Source: Candidatus Eiseniibacteriota bacterium (lineage in GTDB: Bacteria > Eisenbacteria > RBG-16-71-46 > SZUA-252). From it: DNA of 51,717 nucleotides. Shown piece after piece: positions 260 through 49,962 of the stretch (within the stretch, counting starts at the first letter, position 1; each line of letters starts with the position of its first letter). Position numbers and translations under genes: made by a program. The notes below the pieces were generated by a model. The model made no database searches. It was not told where the DNA came from and saw nothing but the letters and a program-made list of their open reading frames with translations. Location of the stretch: contig DASTBC010000035.1 of assembly GCA_035712245.1 (NCBI GenBank), forward strand, positions 1-51,717, given 5' to 3'.

Positions 260-298
260 TCCGGAGGCAGACGCTCTATCCAGCTGAGCTACGGGCGC
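260..298 (-). pseudogene. 5' half of a tRNA-Arg(CCG)-like gene, truncated directly after the anticodon loop
   Basis: The reverse complement reads GCGCCCGTAGCTCAGCTGGATAGAGCGTCTGCCTCCGGA. This covers the acceptor 5' strand, the D-arm, the anticodon-stem 5' strand and a CUCCGGA loop (anticodon CCG). The following bases (GAATACGAGCGCATCACC...) cannot pair as an anticodon-stem 3' strand, T-arm or acceptor 3' strand. Confidence 0.6.
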
Positions 299-8641: not shown

Positions 8642-9862
8642 ATGAACGTCCTCGTGTTCACCTCCCTCTACCCGAACAACGTCCAGCCCAATCACGGGAT
8701 CTTCGTGCAGGAGCGGGTCGCGCGCGTGGCACGCCTCCCGGGAATCTCCGTGCGCGTGATGGCGCCTGTTCCCTGGTACCCGCCCTTCCTCCCGGGGGCC
8801 CGGTCCCGATTTCGGCGGGTGCGCGCCGTCGAGTCGTCCGCGGGCCTCGAGGTGCTCCATCCCCGGTACGCGATGATTCCGAAAGTCGGGATGCCCCTCC
8901 ACGGTCCGATGATGTTCCGGTCGCTGCTCGCGCCGCTGCGCGCGCTTCACGAGAGCGCTCGGTTCGGCCTCATCGACGCTCACTATCTCTATCCCGACGG
9001 CTACGCCGCCGTGGAGCTGGGCCGCGCGCTCGGCCTCCCCGTGGTCGTCTCCGCGCGAGGAAGCGACGTGAACCGGTTCGCCGGCTTCCCCCGCATCCGC
9101 CCGATGCTCCGGTCCACGCTCGCCGGGGCGGCGCAGGCGATCGCCGTCTCCGCCGCCCTGCGCGACCGCATGGTGGAGCTCGGAGTCCCGGAATCCAGGA
9201 TCGAGGTGATCCCGAACGGCGTCGATCTCGGCACCTACGCGCCGCGCGACCGCGCCGCGTCGCGCGCGCGCCTCGGGCTGCCGGACCGGAACACGCTCCT
9301 CTACGTGGGAAACCTGGTGCCCGGAAAGGGAGTGGAGGCGCTGATCGAAGGGTTCGCCCTTCTGACACGCGCCGCCGGAGCGTCCGGTCCCGCGGCTTCG
9401 GGCAAGGACGCCGGGCTGGTGATCGTGGGCGCGGGGCCCCTCCGCGCGGCGCTCGAGGAGCGGGCGCACGCTCGCGGCGTCGCGGACGCGGTGCGCTTCG
9501 CGGGCGAGGTGCCGCACGCGGCGCTGGGCGACTGGTACTCGGCGGCCGACGCGCTCTGCCTCGTGAGCGAACGGGAAGGATGGCCCAACGTCCTCCTGGA
9601 AGCGCTCGCCTGCGGGACTCCGATCGTCGCGACGCGCGTGGGCGGGATCCCGGAGATCGTGACGTCGGACCAGTTCGGGATCCTCACCGGGAGCGACCCG
9701 CGCGAGATCGCGCAGGCGGCCCGGGCCTCGCTGGAACGGGACTGGGACCGCGCCGTGCTGCGGGCCCATGCGGAGCGCTTCACCTGGGAGCGCGCCGCCG
9801 CATCCGTGGGACGCGTGTTCGAGAGGGCCCTCGCGGCCGGTCCCGCGGCGGTGGCGCGATGA
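8642..9862 (+). CDS. Glycosyltransferase family 4 (GT-B fold)
   Basis: MNVLVFTSLYPN...GIFVQERV at the N-terminus and a C-terminal GT1-type core (LLYVGNLVPGKGV...SEREGWPNVLLEALACGTPIVATRVGGIPEIV, the E-x7-E region). Confidence 0.85.
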   Translation: MNVLVFTSLYPNNVQPNHGIFVQERVARVARLPGISVRVMAPVPWYPPFLPGARSRFRRVRAVESSAGLEVLHPRYAMIPKVGMPLHGPMMFRSLLAPLRALHESARFGLIDAHYLYPDGYAAVELGRALGLPVVVSARGSDVNRFAGFPRIRPMLRSTLAGAAQAIAVSAALRDRMVELGVPESRIEVIPNGVDLGTYAPRDRAASRARLGLPDRNTLLYVGNLVPGKGVEALIEGFALLTRAAGASGPAASGKDAGLVIVGAGPLRAALEERAHARGVADAVRFAGEVPHAALGDWYSAADALCLVSEREGWPNVLLEALACGTPIVATRVGGIPEIVTSDQFGILTGSDPREIAQAARASLERDWDRAVLRAHAERFTWERAAASVGRVFERALAAGPAAVAR

Positions 9863-34107: not shown

Positions 34108-34184
34108 TGGTGGGCGATAGTGGACTTGAACCACTGACCCCCTGCATGTCAAGCAGGTACTCTAACCAGCTGAGCTAATCGCCC
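34108..34184 (-). tRNA. tRNA-Val(GAC), CCA encoded
   Basis: The reverse complement is GGGCGATTAGCTCAGCTGGTTAGAGTACCTGCTTGACATGCAGGGGGTCAGTGGTTCAAGTCCACTATCGCCCACCA. Acceptor GGGCGAT/ATCGCCC, anticodon stem CCTGC/GCAGG with loop TTGACAT, and T-arm CAGTGGTTCAAGTCCACTA. Confidence 0.93.
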
Positions 34185-45565: not shown

Positions 45566-45804
45566 GAAGTCAAGCACAATCTCCGGATGCACCGGATCCA
45601 CGGCCTGCGTTCCTGTGATCGCCGACCACGTGGCGCCCGACGCGGCAAGGCATGGTTCCTGCCCTGTGACGGATCGCGCAGCCCTCCCCCGAAGGAGGGC
45701 GCCCGGACAACGTGCGGCGGCGCTTCAGGATGGCGCGTCGAGCCGCGATCGGAGGCTGACACTTCTGACAGGTCCCACTGACGATCTGTCAGGAAGGGGG
45801 AACG

Positions 45805-47112
<1,308 letters not shown>

Positions 47113-47170
47113 ACCGGGCGGCGCAAACGCCGCTTGAATCCCGGAGCGCAGTACAGCCAACGCTCGCTAC

Positions 47171-47487: not shown

Positions 47488-47786
47488 TCCTGAGCCTCCG
47501 CTCCTGTAACCCAGGGGTAACACGGCTCCCGGGCCGGCGTACAAAGGAACTGGCCGTACCGCCAGTTGCTTTCTTGACACGTGTCGGTATCGTCGACGCT
47601 CCGCACGCCCAACAATACTGGATGGGCATTGCCGCGAGACCCCACCGTCAACGCGCACTCCAAACAGGGCGCCCTAGCGGTTGCAGTGTTGCTGTTGTCA
47701 CAAAGGGTAATGACGCCGACCTACACATGCGGGACGGTACGTTCGCGGATCGGACAAGGCGAGAGAGTTCGACGAGTGCAGGTGTG

Positions 47787-47828
47787 TGCCCCCGGAGTGA
47801 TCCGAACACCCAGCCCACGATTTAGGAG
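47787..47828 (-). pseudogene. Diverged 3' half-copy of tRNA-Arg(CCT), from anticodon loop to discriminator (att-like repeat)
   Basis: tgcccccggAgtgatCcgaacacccAgcccacgAtttaggag aligns with 48386-48427 of the intact tRNA, with 4 mismatches in 42 nt. The mismatches fall in the T-stem (giving G-U), T-loop, variable loop and anticodon stem. No matching acceptor 5' strand or D-arm follows. Confidence 0.7.
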
Positions 47829-47925
47829 ATCAATCGGTCTCTTGTCCCGCTGTAATCCCGCCGAGTCTCGCAGTGTCCCGTTTCACCTGTACCAGAGCGA
47901 GCCGATAGGCTACTTCTAGGGTACA

Positions 47926-48153
47926 GTGTCTTCAGAGATGCCGCTTCCTGGGTGCCTATCTGTACGAATGCCGGATCACGAGAAGCGCTTCATTCGGGAG
48001 CGTGCGGAGTGCTACGGGCTTACCATGAGTGAATACTTGGTGCTGGCGGTGCCGCATTTCGACTGTTCTGGACTACCACTCCAGGTGATCCCGCCTCTCC
48101 CCGTCGATCCCTGGGGGCCGCCAAGCCAAAGGGCAAAGAAATGCCCCCTATGA
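47926..48153 (+). CDS. MobC-like ribbon-helix-helix protein (mobilisation/relaxosome accessory-like)
   Basis: LSVRMPDHEKRFIRERAECYGLTMSEYLVLAV fits the MobC/RHH pattern (beta-strand, then E..l...A...G.s.SeYl). Start uncertain (GTG 47926, ATG 47937 or ATG 47965). Low-GC context. Confidence 0.5.
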   Translation: MSSEMPLPGCLSVRMPDHEKRFIRERAECYGLTMSEYLVLAVPHFDCSGLPLQVIPPLPVDPWGPPSQRAKKCPL

Positions 48154-48317
48154 GCGTCTGGGAGGGCATCGGCTTAACAGTCCTCATTTTCATTGCCTAT
48201 ATCTTTCACCCCATCACCGGCCTCAAGAGACTCATCGATCGCACCAAAGAGCAGGAGAAAACAGAGCAGGAGGAGAGGGAAGAAAAAAGTAAGCCCCTGG
48301 AGCCACGATCTCCCTAG
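48150..48317 (+). CDS. 55-aa single-pass membrane micro-protein (hypothetical)
   Basis: ATG 48150 overlaps the upstream stop (ATGA). Sequence: MSVWEGIGLTVLIFIAYIFHPITGLKRLIDRTKEQEKTEQEEREEKSKPLEPRSP, one TM helix plus a charged tail. It is too short for the ORF track and competes with the frame of ORF 48193..48384. Confidence 0.3.
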   Translation: MSVWEGIGLTVLIFIAYIFHPITGLKRLIDRTKEQEKTEQEEREEKSKPLEPRSP

Positions 48318-48385
48318 GGGCCGATGTTTCTTTGCGGGAGTCTACAGGGGGAACTACAAGCGGAAGCCCGACGAAGCTAAGTAAG

Positions 48386-48459
48386 TGCCCCCGGGGTGAT
48401 TCGAACACCCGGCCCACGGTTTAGGAAACCGCTGCTCTGTCCACCTGAGCTACGGGGGC
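48386..48459 (-). tRNA. tRNA-Arg(CCT)
   Basis: The reverse complement is GCCCCCGTAGCTCAGGTGGACAGAGCAGCGGTTTCCTAAACCGTGGGCCGGGTGTTCGAATCACCCCGGGGGCA. Acceptor GCCCCCG/CGGGGGC, D-arm GCTC..GAGC, anticodon stem GCGGT/ACCGT with loop TTCCTAA, and T-arm GGGTG-TTCGAAT-CACCC. CCA is not encoded. Confidence 0.9.
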
Positions 48460-48482
48460 GCAAGGACTTAGCGCGTAGTGTA

Positions 48483-48521
48483 GCGCATCGATGCGCGCTG
48501 TGTACCCTTCTGTGTACCCTT
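48483..48521. repeat. 14-bp palindrome plus a perfect 12-bp tandem direct repeat immediately upstream of tRNA-Arg(CCT)
   Basis: gcgcatcgatgcgc lies at 48483-48496. ctgtgtaccctt occurs at 48498-48509 and again at 48510-48521. Confidence 0.85.
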
Positions 48522-48597
48522 CGAATTGACTGCGAGAACGCACTCGAAACCACGGACGAATCCTCACGGAACACGTGCAGGAGGCGCACAGAGAAGA

Positions 48598-48626
48598 GCC
48601 CCCAGCGAGGCGATCTCGCGGGGGGC
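48598..48626 (-). terminator. Hairpin with a T-rich tail on the minus strand, downstream of the frameshifted peptide gene
   Basis: Stem gcccccagcgag / ctcgcggggggc (11 of 12 pairs) with loop gcgat. On the minus strand it is followed by tcttctctgtg. Confidence 0.4.
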
Positions 48627-48686
48627 TTCTGAGTGCGATCACCTCGCGTTCCAGCTAGGACCATCCTCCAGCGCCGCGTCCGGAGT

Positions 48687-48817
48687 TTAGCGAGGGGGGA
48701 GACAGGGGTAGTTCGTGTCGCAGCCCTGGTTTGGGCACGTCGGGGCAAAAGACAGGCAATAGGGACAGTTCGTATATGCCCTGGTCTGGTTCTGTGGAGG
48801 CGGTTCATCGGGTTCAT
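48687..48817 (-). pseudogene. Frameshifted paralogue of the Cys-rich GG-leader peptide gene
   Basis: An aaggag RBS, a 6-nt spacer and ATG 48817 open MNPMNRLHRTRPGHIRT... (compare MNPRDRKLRLRKSTIRDLT in the intact gene). The Cys-rich tail ...YTNCPYCLSFAPTCPNQGCDTNYPCLPPR* (stop 48687-48689) is in a different frame and has no start codon of its own. TCPNQGC parallels TCPTRNC of the intact gene. Confidence 0.4.
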
Positions 48818-48855
48818 CGCGATCTCCTTGGTGAATGGCCGTCTCCGAAACCTGG

Positions 48856-48900
48856 CACCTGAGCTACGGGGGCGCAAAGGGTTACGCGTGCAGTGTACTG
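48856..48900 (-). pseudogene. Partial copy of the tRNA-Arg(CCT) 5' end (22 nt) plus its upstream flank
   Basis: cacctgagctacgggggcgcaa (48856-48877) is identical to 48442-48463. The next ~25 nt (agggttacgcgtgcagtgtactgc) resemble the flank of the intact gene (ggacttagcgcgtagtgtagcgc). Confidence 0.65.
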
Positions 48901-49265
48901 CTTCCCGCCGTACGAGGGCATCGGTCGGCTTCGCGGGTGAGGTCATTGGTGCTGTCGCAACCGCTCGAAGCTGTCTCCCGGCCGGGACCTGCCAGTCTCG
49001 ATCGCACTCGCGGCACGTTCTCGAATTGTCTCGACCGCGACGGCGTCTGGGCGTTCGACGCTGTGCCAAGGTCAGGCTCGAGGCGGGATACCGCTTCATC
49101 CCCTGCCGCGCGGTTGACTAAGGAGCCACAGAACAGGGCGGGAATCCGTTCCCGACAGAAAGTGGTGCTCGGCCATCGTTGTGGTACTTTTTGCCTCCGT
49201 GATCCGCCATGTGGATGGGGGGATTCGCAGCTCCATCGGATTTCCACCAAAGGAAGGAGTTCTCG

Positions 49266-49562
49266 TTGAATCCTCGTGACAGAAAGTTACGCCTACGGAA
49301 GTCCACCATTCGAGATCTCACGATGAGGGACGCGAGCAGAGCTCGAGGTGGCGTCCTCCTCGACACTAAGGCTGACACACAAAATCCCTGTATCACCCCA
49401 GCCACACACATATGGAATGGCTGCGACGAACTGACCTTCGGTCACACCGAATGCGACGCAACAGAATGCCTCACTGAATGCCTTGATACGTACGCGATTA
49501 GCTGCGGAGTCTCCTGCTGGGACTGTGACTCCATGGCCACGTGCCCCACTAGGAACTGTTGA
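49266..49562 (+). CDS. Cysteine-rich peptide precursor with a double-glycine-type leader (RiPP/bacteriocin-like), 98 aa
   Basis: An aggaaggag RBS, a 6-nt spacer and TTG 49266. The leader (M)NPRDRKLRLRKSTIRDLTMRDASRARGG has Leu at -12 and Asp at -8 relative to GG. The core VLLDTKADTQNPCITPATHIWNGCDELTFGHTECDATECLTECLDTYAISCGVSCWDCDSMATCPTRNC has 10 Cys and 14 Ser/Thr. A strong hairpin lies 24 nt downstream. The 19 upstream codons of ORF 49209..49562 are not needed. Confidence 0.6.
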   Translation: MNPRDRKLRLRKSTIRDLTMRDASRARGGVLLDTKADTQNPCITPATHIWNGCDELTFGHTECDATECLTECLDTYAISCGVSCWDCDSMATCPTRNC

Positions 49563-49585
49563 TCTTCCCCACCGTGCAGAAGAAG

Positions 49586-49621
49586 ACTCGGGGTGTCTGC
49601 GATGCTGCAGACACCCCGAGT
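49586..49621 (+). terminator. Strong hairpin terminator after the peptide gene
   Basis: Perfect 15-bp stem actcggggtgtctgc / gcagacaccccgagt with loop gatgct, followed by tgcattcct (weak U-tract). Confidence 0.6.
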
Positions 49622-49766
49622 TGCATTCCTATCTGCGAGACAGCCGCCGTGGCGGTACGGGGCGAGACTCCCCTCCCCCGAGATCCACGCGCGAGCGTTC
49701 GAGATACCCGGACGCGGAGGGATTCAGCGGGACGTGGCGTACTCGGCGGGAATGACCTTGGACTAG

Positions 49767-49806
49767 TTAGGAAACCGCTGCTCTGTCCACCTGAGCTACG
49801 GGGCGC
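49767..49806 (-). pseudogene. 5' half-copy of tRNA-Arg(CCT), from anticodon loop to the 5' end, with a 1-nt deletion in the acceptor
   Basis: ttaggaaaccgctgctctgtccacctgagctacgggg (49767-49803) is identical to 48421-48457. The G-run is one base shorter than in the intact gene. No 3' half is adjacent. Confidence 0.75.
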
Positions 49807-49962
49807 GTCTCGTTAAGTGCGTCAGTAGCAGCTTTATGCTGGCCCGTTCTCTTCCCTTCCTGCGTTGGATAGGCCGCTAACCCTTGGCTACCAGGATTCC
49901 CCTCCCATGACGACGCGGGGGGTGTAGACTCGTCGCGTTGCCGGGCTGCTAGGGAGGTCACC

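What the first reader, a model, noticed from the sequence alone, without database searches (positions are those of the whole stretch)
47787..49806. tRNA-Arg(CCT) flanked on both sides by partial tRNA copies, the anticodon-spanning ones breaking at the anticodon loop: a recombination hotspot with 5'-half duplication
In tRNA orientation (the minus strand) the order is as follows. First is a 5' half-copy at 49806->49767, which is 37 of 37 nt identical and ends at the anticodon loop TTCCTAA. Then comes 0.9 kb, then a copy of the 5' 22 nt plus a promoter-like flank (48900->48856). Then comes 0.4 kb, then the intact gene (48459->48386). Then comes 0.56 kb, then a 3' half-copy (47828->47787, about 90% identical, starting at the anticodon loop). 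Classical tRNA-targeting integrases leave only a displaced 3' fragment. Here 5' fragments with upstream flank are duplicated as well, and the left edge of the window (260-298) shows the same 5'-half pattern at a different Arg tRNA. No integrase, excisionase or transposase survives in the 2 kb between the repeats. The region has lower GC than the core and carries only small, unusual ORFs. Possible explanations are serial integration and decay of elements using the anticodon loop as crossover, with attP carrying either half. Another is an element that carried its own replacement tRNA into a now-split ancestral gene, since the outer halves at 47787-47828 and 49767-49806 would together reconstitute a full Arg tRNA. 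Either would be an atypical integration module worth characterising.
Basis: partly seen in the sequence, partly recalled or inferred. Interest (0 to 1): 0.8.

Follow-up and report, generated by a model that had tools for sequence, protein, structure and literature searches.

The report
Decayed integration scars flanking tRNA-Arg
A working arginine tRNA gene sits between leftover half-copies of itself, most likely the scars of several mobile elements that inserted on either side of the gene at its anticodon loop and then decayed; this is an uncommon but already described variant of an ordinary process.

Summary
An intact tRNA-Arg(CCT) gene (48385-48459, minus strand) has three partial copies around it. 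Upstream is a 37/37-identical 5' half that ends exactly at the anticodon loop. Also upstream is a copy of the first 18 nt plus a promoter-like flank. Downstream is a 38/42-identical 3' half that starts in the loop. A 5' half of tRNA-Arg(CCG) at the window's left edge breaks at the same place. The intervening 2 kb has 55-63% GC against about 70% elsewhere and holds no recombinase.

Related sequences point to a mechanism. Two viral contigs, one circular, carry only the tRNA-Arg(CCT) 5' half, 20-40 nt downstream of an integrase gene. One soil contig holds a whole integrated element: orphan 5' half, 4.6 kb, integrase, promoter, intact tRNA-Pro. A 460-500-residue integrase family sits next to orphan 5' halves in at least five independent contexts. 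Ordinary 3'-half elements use the same loop.

The locus is most likely a fossil array with two upstream "5'-half" remnants and one downstream "3'-half" remnant. I could not exclude a single element that split the host gene and brought its own tRNA. 5'-fragment islands are about 4% of catalogued tRNA islands, so novelty is modest.

The parts
48385..48459 (-). Intact tRNA-Arg(CCT) gene. It has no encoded CCA. On either model it is probably wholly element-derived.
   Evidence: ARAGORN. Rfam tRNA 64.5 bits. Cloverleaf minimum-free-energy fold, -35.2 kcal/mol.
49767..49805 (-). Orphan 5' half of tRNA-Arg(CCT) with its own upstream flank. It ends at the last base of the anticodon loop. Interpreted as the displaced host 5' half.
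   Evidence: 37/37 identity, E 1e-15. One C missing from the 5' C-run. The same breakpoint occurs in L133/L138, L139, L141, L142, L146-150, L155, L156 and L157. L145 extends five bases further, through the 3' side of the anticodon stem.
48856..48900 (-). Truncated 5' copy: tRNA nt 1-18 plus a promoter-like flank (TACACT at 48897->48892). Interpreted as the 5' part supplied by an earlier element, displaced by a later one and then cut by a deletion.
   Evidence: 22/22 identity, E 1e-6. 26/29 including the flank. The flank aligns better with the intact gene's flank than with the orphan's flank.
47786..47827 (-). Orphan 3' half of tRNA-Arg(CCT), nt 33 to the discriminator plus one base. It starts in the anticodon loop. 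Interpreted as the displaced 3' half left by a classical integration.
   Evidence: 38/42 identity, E 4e-9, four transitions. Ten of the 17 downstream flank bases also match. The same type of 3' orphan is seen in provirus L152.
47828..48384 (.). Remnant of the downstream (3'-type) element, 557 bp, 55-58% GC. It holds a ribbon-helix-helix ORF (47926-48153, +) and a 58-aa membrane-like ORF (48141-48317, +).
   Evidence: GC profile. Sub-threshold matches to NikA-like, MobA and RelB. No recombinase.
48460..48855 (.). Remnant of the proximal upstream (5'-type) element. It includes the promoter-like region of the intact gene, the palindrome GCGCATCGATGCGC (48483-48496) and a 2 x 12-nt tandem repeat (48498-48521).
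   Evidence: Sequence. Palindrome hit. Repeat search. No protein domain.
48901..49766 (.). Remnant of the distal upstream (5'-type) element. It carries a small cargo gene at 49266-49562 (+) and a 15-bp hairpin at 49586-49621.
   Evidence: GC 55-57% at 49.1-49.6 kb. The peptide family has a conserved GG leader. Hairpin.
260..298 (-). Orphan 5' half of tRNA-Arg(CCG), ending at the anticodon loop CTCCGGA. This is a second instance of the same scar. The element side runs off the window's left edge.
   Evidence: Sequence. No tRNA called there. 21/23 match to the Arg(CCT) D-arm region.

Best explanation
The locus is a fossil tandem array of integrative elements at a tRNA-Arg(CCT) hot spot. Tyrosine integrases use the 7-nt anticodon loop as the strand-exchange region. 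Two kinds of element have used it.

- **Classical elements.** Their attP carries the loop-to-3'-end part of the tRNA. They insert downstream and push the resident 3' half away. That half is now at 47786-47827.
- **Reverse-polarity elements.** Their attP carries a promoter plus the 5' half up to the end of the loop. They insert upstream and push the resident 5' half, with its promoter, away. That half is now at 49767-49805.

The 18-nt copy with a promoter-like flank (48856-48900) would be the 5' part supplied by a first reverse-polarity element. A second, related element then displaced it, and a deletion later truncated it.

All three element bodies have shrunk to 0.4-0.9 kb. They keep only small cargo ORFs and no recombinase, so the array is probably immobile now. 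One consequence is that the working tRNA gene, including its promoter, is now entirely of mobile-element origin.

**Shown:** the repeats, their exact breakpoints, the low GC, the lack of recombinases, and the existence of both attP polarities in related sequences.

**Inferred:** that these events produced this particular locus, their order, and the deletions.
For: 1. **Breakpoints.** The 5' half ends at A38 and the 3' half starts at U33. These are the edges of the loop that tyrosine integrases cut at (PMC8371274).
2. **attP carrying only the 5' half exists.** IMGVR_UViG_3300044854_000085 is 84,756 nt with a 127-nt exact terminal overlap, so it is circular. It has one tRNA-Arg(CCT) 5' half ending at TTCCTAA. 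This lies about 20 nt downstream of a 405-aa Phage_integrase ORF, with an HTH_17 ORF on the other side. L155 has the same layout, with the integrase ending 38 nt upstream of the half.
3. **A complete integrated example.** L120 carries a tRNA-Arg(CCT) that is 73/74 identical to the window's. At its tRNA-Pro(GGG) it has, in order: an orphan 5' half of nt 1-39 (39/39) ending at the loop, a 4.57-kb element, an integrase in the tRNA's direction, a TTGACA-17-TAGATT promoter, and the intact tRNA.
4. **A recurrent integrase family.** A family of 461-503-aa integrases (P0125-P0131) usually has an HTH_17-like partner gene. It lies next to an orphan tRNA-Arg(CCT) 5' half in every locus where the flank is available: L142, L145, L146-150, L156 and L157. 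In L138, L139 and L141 the orphan's upstream side is housekeeping DNA (apt, surE), so those copies are integrated.
5. **Classical elements use the same loop.** L152 has an intact tRNA plus a 43-nt 3' orphan starting at TTCCTAA, with integrase, D5 primase and capsid genes. L110 and L125 have an integrase on the 3' side of the tRNA.
6. **The truncated copy.** Its flank resembles the intact gene's flank (26/29, shared TACACT). This is expected if both came from related elements that carry a promoter plus a 5' half.
7. **Precedent.** Islander lists 159 islands with 5' fragments and 125 tandem arrays (PMC4383910).
Against: - No integrase, excisionase or attP arm sites survive in the window, so nothing ties a particular enzyme to this locus.
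- No empty or differently filled site was found. The closest relative shares only the citrate synthase gene, at 93% nt identity.
- The model needs at least three integrations plus several deletions, whereas the single-element rival needs one integration.
- The truncated copy stops at nt 18, not at the loop, so an extra deletion has to be assumed.
- The two orphans should be the two halves of the original host gene. As they stand they do not fold into a cloverleaf: a C is missing, A58 is G, and the z-score is -1.4 even with the C restored.
- The 3' orphan lacks an encoded CCA, although tRNA-Val in the window and almost all related tRNA-Arg(CCT) genes have one.
- For the P0125 integrase family, the far end of the element was never seen.
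Confidence: 0.58

Rival explanations
1. A single element split the host tRNA-Arg(CCT) gene at a short common core (TCCTAA) without rebuilding it, and carried its own complete tRNA-Arg(CCT) that complements the loss. This is 'tRNA-dependent lysogeny'. The element then decayed to 1.9 kb, but its tRNA was kept because it had become essential.
For: - The outer halves overlap by only 6 nt, and an intact gene of the same isotype lies between them.
- Both flanks of the intact gene are low-GC foreign DNA.
- The intact gene lacks the encoded CCA that the window's tRNA-Val and related tRNA-Arg(CCT) genes have.
- Only one integration is needed.
- The mechanism is demonstrated in actinobacteriophages with 8-17-bp cores (PMC10865867).
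- Retention of an essential tRNA would explain why the remnant was not deleted completely.
Against: - It does not predict the third copy at 48856-48900, whose promoter-like flank is related to that of the intact gene.
- No element carrying a full tRNA-Arg(CCT) was found. L142, L145, L146 and L151 hold 4.8-13 kb of element DNA next to the integrase with no tRNA.
- The attP sites actually seen in viral contigs carry the whole 5' half, not a short core.
- The complete example, L120, has no internal tRNA and no 3' orphan.
Confidence: 0.22
2. The partial copies arose without site-specific recombination. They would be local partial duplications, slippage products or tRNA pseudogenes in a variable intergenic region.
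For: - No recombinase is present.
- The 18-nt copy breaks in the D-loop, not at a known crossover site.
- Promoter-proximal flanks are similar among the copies.
Against: - Both long copies break exactly at the edges of the anticodon loop.
- The identical breakpoint occurs in more than ten independent contigs, in most of which an integrase gene lies next to the orphan half.
- The DNA between the copies is unrelated, low in GC, and carries cargo-type ORFs.
Confidence: 0.08
3. The arrangement is an assembly chimera. Strain variants, with and without elements, were joined through the shared tRNA sequence.
For: - The window comes from an uncultured organism.
- The only independent contig matching this region (L001, a Logan contig, 100% identical) starts at 49886, 80 nt from the 5' orphan. 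Junction coverage by a second assembly is therefore lacking.
Against: - The shared stretches are only 22-42 nt, shorter than typical final assembly k-mers.
- The same orphan architecture appears in many independent assemblies, including 30-kb and 121-kb contigs.
- Each junction has a coherent structure, with the breakpoint at a loop edge.
Confidence: 0.05

Closest known systems
Genomic islands with a displaced 5' tDNA fragment (Islander catalogue, Hudson et al. 2015, PMC4383910)
   Same: An intact tRNA gene has a cognate 5' fragment upstream in the same orientation, with foreign DNA between them. The crossover is centred on the anticodon. Tandem arrays are also described.
   Different: The window's islands are 0.4-0.9 kb with no integrase, so they fail Islander's integrase and 2-kb filters. 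The same gene also has a 3' fragment downstream.
pTN3-like integrases of Thermococcales (Cossu et al. 2017, as reviewed in PMC8371274)
   Same: attB/attP corresponds to the 5' half of a tRNA gene. The rebuilt tRNA lies just downstream of the integrase gene and is expressed from the element. L120, L153 and L155 show this layout.
   Different: Those are archaeal plasmids or viruses with a different integrase family. Here the hosts are bacteria. The P0125 family has the opposite gene order, with the integrase converging on the orphan half.
Classical anticodon-loop tRNA integration, 'sublocation A' of Williams 2002 (cited through PMC8371274 and PMC4383910)
   Same: The 7-nt anticodon loop is the overlap region, flanked by the stem. 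attP carries the loop-to-3'-end part, and a 3' orphan is left downstream (47786-47827; also L152).
   Different: This accounts for only one of the three partial copies in the window.
tRNA-dependent lysogeny (Guerrero-Bustamante and Hatfull 2024, PMC10865867)
   Same: A host tRNA is split at a short core and an element-borne tRNA of the same isotype lies inside. The outer halves here overlap by 6 nt around an intact gene.
   Different: It is known only from actinobacteriophages with intact integrases. Here there is no integrase, there is an extra promoter-bearing 5' copy, and related attP sites carry a full 5' half rather than a short core.
CIMEs and tandem accretion of integrative elements (own knowledge: Pavlovic et al. 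2004, Streptococcus thermophilus ICESt1/ICESt3)
   Same: Short att-flanked remnants lack recombination genes and lie in tandem at a tRNA-type hot spot.
   Different: Mobilisation in trans is not shown here, and the att sites are partly degraded.

Membership tests
tRNA-targeting tyrosine-integrase island (Islander criteria) | An intact tDNA plus a cognate end fragment on the same strand, with the 5' fragment upstream or the 3' fragment downstream | tested here: met
   The 5' half lies upstream (49767-49805) and the 3' half downstream (47786-47827). All copies are on the minus strand.
tRNA-targeting tyrosine-integrase island (Islander criteria) | A tyrosine integrase gene inside the interval | tested here: not met
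   No Phage_integrase domain appears in any ORF of 47.1-49.9 kb. tblastn with 10 integrases gives only a motif-level hit, E 0.3-0.8.
tRNA-targeting tyrosine-integrase island (Islander criteria) | Island length of 2-200 kb | tested here: not met
   The intervals are 557, 396 and about 870 bp. They are remnants.
tRNA-targeting tyrosine-integrase island (Islander criteria) | Crossover at a recognised sublocation (anticodon loop, T-loop or 3' end) | tested here: met
   The 5' half ends at A38 and the 3' half starts at U33, so the overlap TCCTAA lies in the anticodon loop. The 18-nt copy breaks in the D-loop and does not meet this criterion.
Reverse-polarity (5'-half attP) integrative elements | attP of the free element contains the 5' half of the target tRNA | tested here: inconclusive
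   Met in related sequences: the circular viral contig L153/L154 and L155. No free element corresponding to the window's remnants was found.
Reverse-polarity (5'-half attP) integrative elements | The integrated form is orphan 5' half, then element, then intact tRNA, with no 3' orphan required | tested here: met
   The window has this order on its upstream side. The complete analogue is in L120.
Reverse-polarity (5'-half attP) integrative elements | The rebuilt tRNA is transcribed from an element-supplied promoter | tested here: inconclusive
   TACACT lies about 19-25 nt upstream of both the intact gene and the truncated copy. The consensus promoter scan found no site. L120 has TTGACA-17-TAGATT. 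There are no expression data.
tRNA-dependent lysogeny | [quoted passage not shown] | tested here: inconclusive
   The outer halves overlap by 6 nt. This is compatible with the family, but two independent integrations would give the same pattern.
tRNA-dependent lysogeny | [quoted passage not shown] | tested here: inconclusive
   An intact tRNA-Arg(CCT) lies between the halves. No related element with an internal tRNA was found in 4.8-13 kb of element DNA.
tRNA-dependent lysogeny | The two split halves reconstitute one functional host tRNA | tested here: inconclusive
   The joined halves do not give a cloverleaf minimum-free-energy fold (z 0.06, or -1.36 with the C restored). Decay after the split could explain this.
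CIME-like non-autonomous remnant | Flanked by att-type repeats and lacking recombination or transfer genes | tested here: met
CIME-like non-autonomous remnant | Excision or mobilisation by an integrase supplied in trans | not testable with these tools
   This needs read-level evidence of excised circles or empty sites, or an experiment.

The most novel reading that the evidence does not exclude
The locus is a fossil of tRNA-dependent lysogeny in an uncultured soil bacterium close to Candidatus Eisenbacteria. An element broke the only tRNA-Arg(CCT) gene at a 6-bp core and supplied its own copy. It thereby became impossible to lose, and was whittled down to a 1.9-kb stub built around that tRNA. 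This would extend a mechanism known only from actinobacteriophages to a distant phylum. It would also show its long-term outcome: permanent replacement of a host tRNA gene by a parasite's copy.
Probability: 0.2. Interest if true: 0.55.

Novelty: new member of a known kind. Interest (0 to 1): 0.3.

Why it matters
On both leading models, the functional tRNA-Arg(CCT) gene of this organism, promoter included, is no longer the ancestral gene. It is mobile-element DNA, and the ancestral halves survive as flanking scars. That is a clear small example of how integration hot spots overwrite host genes.

The comparative work also shows that reverse-polarity integration is recurrent in a group of high-GC soil bacteria and their viruses. 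In this mode attP carries a promoter plus the 5' half, and the crossover is at the 3' edge of the anticodon loop. It affects at least tRNA-Arg(CCT) and tRNA-Pro(GGG), and probably tRNA-Arg(CCG), for which only an orphan half without a recombinase was seen. It involves at least two integrase families.

This matters in practice for island-finding software and tRNA annotation. Orphan 5' halves still carry host promoters, and pipelines that expect only 3' fragments will miss them. It does not reveal a new kind of system.

Tried and rejected
**Synteny and empty sites.**
- I searched for an empty site using citrate synthase. The 80 genome loci reached at most 76% identity and had no tRNA nearby.
- Proteins at 85-98% identity gave contigs with different neighbours and no tRNA.
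- L082 matches the window only across the citrate synthase gene itself.
- Exact look-up of the window's citrate synthase failed. The 143-aa flank protein exists only on a 1.3-kb Logan contig.

**Searches that found nothing.**
- The 37-mer and 30-mer of the 5' half had no match in viral contigs. Only the degenerate pattern did.
- The Arg(CCG) 5' half had no viral match.
- The Xis-like and integrase proteins had no relatives in IMG/VR.
- Rfam at permissive thresholds reports only the intact tRNA.

**Weak signals set aside.**
- tblastn of integrases against the island gave only an HS[V/L]RH motif-level hit at 49451-49505 (minus strand), E 0.3-0.8. I treat this as chance because it lies antisense to a well-supported small gene.
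- The 12-nt tandem repeat upstream of the tRNA has no further copies in the window.
- The consensus promoter scan found no site in the region.

**Not obtained.**
- Williams 2002 (PMC100330) is not held in the library, so it is cited only through other papers.
- I could not extend the window to the left. All 12 contig look-ups are used, and the source assembly is not in the collection.


Full report
**1.
- ARAGORN finds two tRNAs in the window. One is tRNA-Arg(CCT) at 48385-48459 on the minus strand. Rfam scores it 64.5 bits, and it folds as a cloverleaf.
- I searched the gene plus 150-nt flanks against the whole window. This gave three further pieces on the same strand.
  - nt 3-39 at 49803->49767: 37/37 identical, E 1e-15.
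  - nt 33-74 plus one flank base at 47827->47786: 38/42 identical, E 4e-9, four transitions.
  - Four flank bases plus nt 1-18 at 48877->48856: 22/22 identical, E 1e-6.
- The long 5' piece ends at the last base of the anticodon loop (TTCCTAA). The 3' piece begins at the second base of the loop. They overlap by TCCTAA.
- The 5' piece has one C fewer in the acceptor C-run.
- The short piece's upstream flank resembles that of the intact gene: 26/29 identical, with TACACT at nearly the same distance (one base different). The long 5' piece's flank is only loosely similar.
- At the left edge, 298->260 is the 5' half of a tRNA-Arg(CCG), ending at its loop CTCCGGA. No tRNA is called there.
- GC falls to 55-63% across most of 47.7-49.8 kb, rising to 66% in one 200-nt window near 49.0 kb, against about 70% in most of the window.
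- No ORF in 47.1-49.9 kb has a recombinase, excisionase or transposase domain. tblastn with ten integrases gives nothing significant.

**2. Where the window comes from.**
- The best citrate synthase matches that carry a source name are mostly labelled Candidatus Eisenbacteria.
- No close syntenic relative was found. The species-level genome collection reaches 76% identity with no nearby tRNA.
- Contigs encoding 85-98% identical proteins have other neighbours. The 93%-identical L082 matches only across the gene itself.
- I therefore could not compare filled and empty sites directly.

**3. The same scar is common elsewhere.**
- One metagenome scan with a 30-mer of the 5' half returned 48 loci. 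Of these, 47 are intact tRNA-Arg(CCT) genes. One, L133, is an orphan 5' half ending at TTCCTAA.
- In L133 the orphan has housekeeping genes (apt, surE) upstream and an HTH_17-like small ORF on the element side.
- Homologues of that ORF are followed by 461-503-aa tyrosine integrases, P0125-P0131.
- In every locus where the DNA past the integrase is available, an orphan 5' half follows. These loci are L142, L146-150, L156 and L157, plus L145 in another gene order. The homology stops at the end of the anticodon loop, or in L145 at the end of the anticodon stem.
- None of these loci contains a complete tRNA in 4.8-13 kb of element DNA.
- Strain variants L138, L139 and L141 are about 99% identical in their flanks, yet differ at 2 of 39 orphan positions. 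This suggests relaxed constraint on the orphan.

**4. Direct evidence for attP carrying the 5' half.**
- A degenerate pattern found four viral stretches.
- L153 and L154 are the two ends of an 84,756-nt IMG/VR contig with an exact 127-nt terminal overlap, so it is a circular assembly.
  - It carries a single 5' half of tRNA-Arg(CCT) ending at TTCCTAA.
  - The half lies about 20 nt downstream of a 405-aa Phage_integrase ORF in the same direction, with an HTH_17 ORF on the other side.
- L155, from a 124-kb viral contig, has an integrase ending 38 nt upstream of such a half.
- L120 is a 121-kb contig whose tRNA-Arg(CCT) is 73/74 identical to the window's. It holds a complete integrated element of this polarity at tRNA-Pro(GGG). 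In order it has:
  - an orphan of nt 1-39 (39/39) ending at the loop;
  - 4.57 kb of element DNA;
  - an integrase 34% identical to that of L153, possibly interrupted;
  - a near-consensus promoter;
  - the intact tRNA.
- Classical elements use the same loop.
  - L152 is a 9.9-kb provirus with integrase, D5-type primase and capsid genes. It lies between an intact tRNA-Arg(CCT) and a 43-nt 3' orphan that starts at TTCCTAA.
  - L110 and L125 have integrases on the 3' side of the tRNA.
  - L091 has 3'-end fragments downstream.

**5. Interpretation.** The most economical reading that uses only mechanisms seen in relatives is a tandem array of decayed elements.
- One classical integration downstream left the 3' orphan and a 557-bp remnant.
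- Two successive reverse-polarity integrations upstream left the host 5' half at the far end and, in the middle, a displaced element-supplied 5' part that was later truncated.
- This explains why the truncated copy's flank resembles the intact gene's flank.
- It implies that the working gene and its promoter are now entirely element-derived.

Weak points:
- The model needs several events.
- No recombinase is present in the window.
- The truncated copy breaks at nt 18, not at the loop.
- The two orphans no longer fit together.
- The 3' orphan lacks an encoded CCA, unlike tRNA-Val in the window and nearly all related tRNA-Arg(CCT) genes.

**6. Main rival.** A single element could have split the host gene at a 6-bp core and brought its own tRNA.
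- This is tRNA-dependent lysogeny, shown for actinobacteriophages with 8-17-bp cores (PMC10865867).
- It fits the outer halves and the retained internal tRNA.
- It does not predict the third copy.
- No element with an internal tRNA-Arg turned up.
- I put it at about 0.2. Plain duplication and assembly chimera are less likely for the reasons given under the rival explanations.

**7. Comparison with what is known.**
- Islander reports 3760 islands with 3' fragments, 159 with 5' fragments, and 125 tandem arrays (PMC4383910).
- The archaeal pTN3-like integrases use the 5' half, with the tRNA expressed from the element. The review describes this as seldom seen in bacteria (PMC8371274).
- The finding is therefore a new, decayed member of a known minority class, not a new kind of system.
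- It fails Islander's own membership filters for integrase and length, because it is a remnant.

**8. Verdict.**
- Novelty is modest. Interest is 0.3.

Noticed in passing
window 49266-49562 (+), hairpin 49586-49621: A small gene with a TTG start and a strong AAGGAAGGAG ribosome-binding site encodes a 98-aa peptide. It has a conserved leader, MNPRDRKLRLRKxTVRxL..A..A.GG, followed by a variable Cys-rich core. Seventeen representative homologues of 60-110 aa share the leader (best 65% identity, E 4e-23). It looks like a double-glycine-leader bacteriocin or RiPP precursor carried as island cargo. No modification or export genes lie next to it.
   Followed up: partly
window 47926-48153 (+) and 48141-48317 (+): A ribbon-helix-helix ORF has sub-threshold matches to NikA-like, MobA and RelB antitoxin families. 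It overlaps a 58-aa ORF with one hydrophobic helix and a Glu/Lys-rich tail. These may be a mobilisation or toxin-antitoxin remnant of the downstream element.
   Followed up: partly
window 260-298 (-), element side 1-259: A second orphan 5' half, of tRNA-Arg(CCG), breaks at the loop edge and keeps a TAGGAT -10-like box upstream. The element side runs off the window, so its integrase and partner tRNA could not be seen. No viral contig matched its 30-mer.
   Followed up: partly
window 48483-48521: Just upstream of the intact tRNA lie a perfect 14-nt palindrome, GCGCATCGATGCGC, and a 2 x 12-nt tandem repeat, AAGGGTACACAG (read on the minus strand). The window has no other copies. They could be arm-type integrase sites or promoter elements.
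   Followed up: partly
window 48385-48459 and 47786-47827, compared with 34108-34184: Neither the intact tRNA-Arg(CCT) nor its 3' orphan encodes CCA. tRNA-Val in the same window does, and so do almost all related tRNA-Arg(CCT) genes. Neither model fully explains this for the orphan.
   Followed up: no
window 45648-47113: The citrate synthase gene is 93% identical at nucleotide level to contig L082, but homology stops at both ends of the gene. Contigs at 85% protein identity have a conserved but different neighbourhood. The gene sits in a rearranged or variable region.
   Followed up: no
L120 9335-14016: A complete reverse-polarity island lies at tRNA-Pro(GGG). It consists of a 39/39 orphan 5' half, a 4.57-kb element, an integrase that is possibly interrupted near 9800, a TTGACA-17-TAGATT promoter and the intact tRNA. 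The sister contig L131 ends exactly at the 5' end of that tRNA, which hints at presence/absence variation.
   Followed up: yes
L122 1733-2856: A 1.1-kb insertion, relative to L097 and L116, ends in a decayed copy of tRNA-Arg(CCT) nt 1-59 plus 7 nt of flank. It sits just upstream of the promoter of a tRNA-Arg(ACG)-tRNA-Arg(CCT) pair. This is a 5' fragment that breaks in the T-loop.
   Followed up: partly
L146-L150 (Logan contigs): Five contigs from different sequencing runs all end exactly 30 nt into the orphan 5' half. This is the expected break for a k=31 graph when the half is repeated elsewhere in the sample. It is consistent with a second copy, but does not say which model applies.
   Followed up: no
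window 49451-49505 (-): The translation HSVRHSVAS resembles the HxLRH box of the P0125-family integrases (E 0.3-0.8). It lies antisense to the peptide gene. I judged it not significant.
   Followed up: yes
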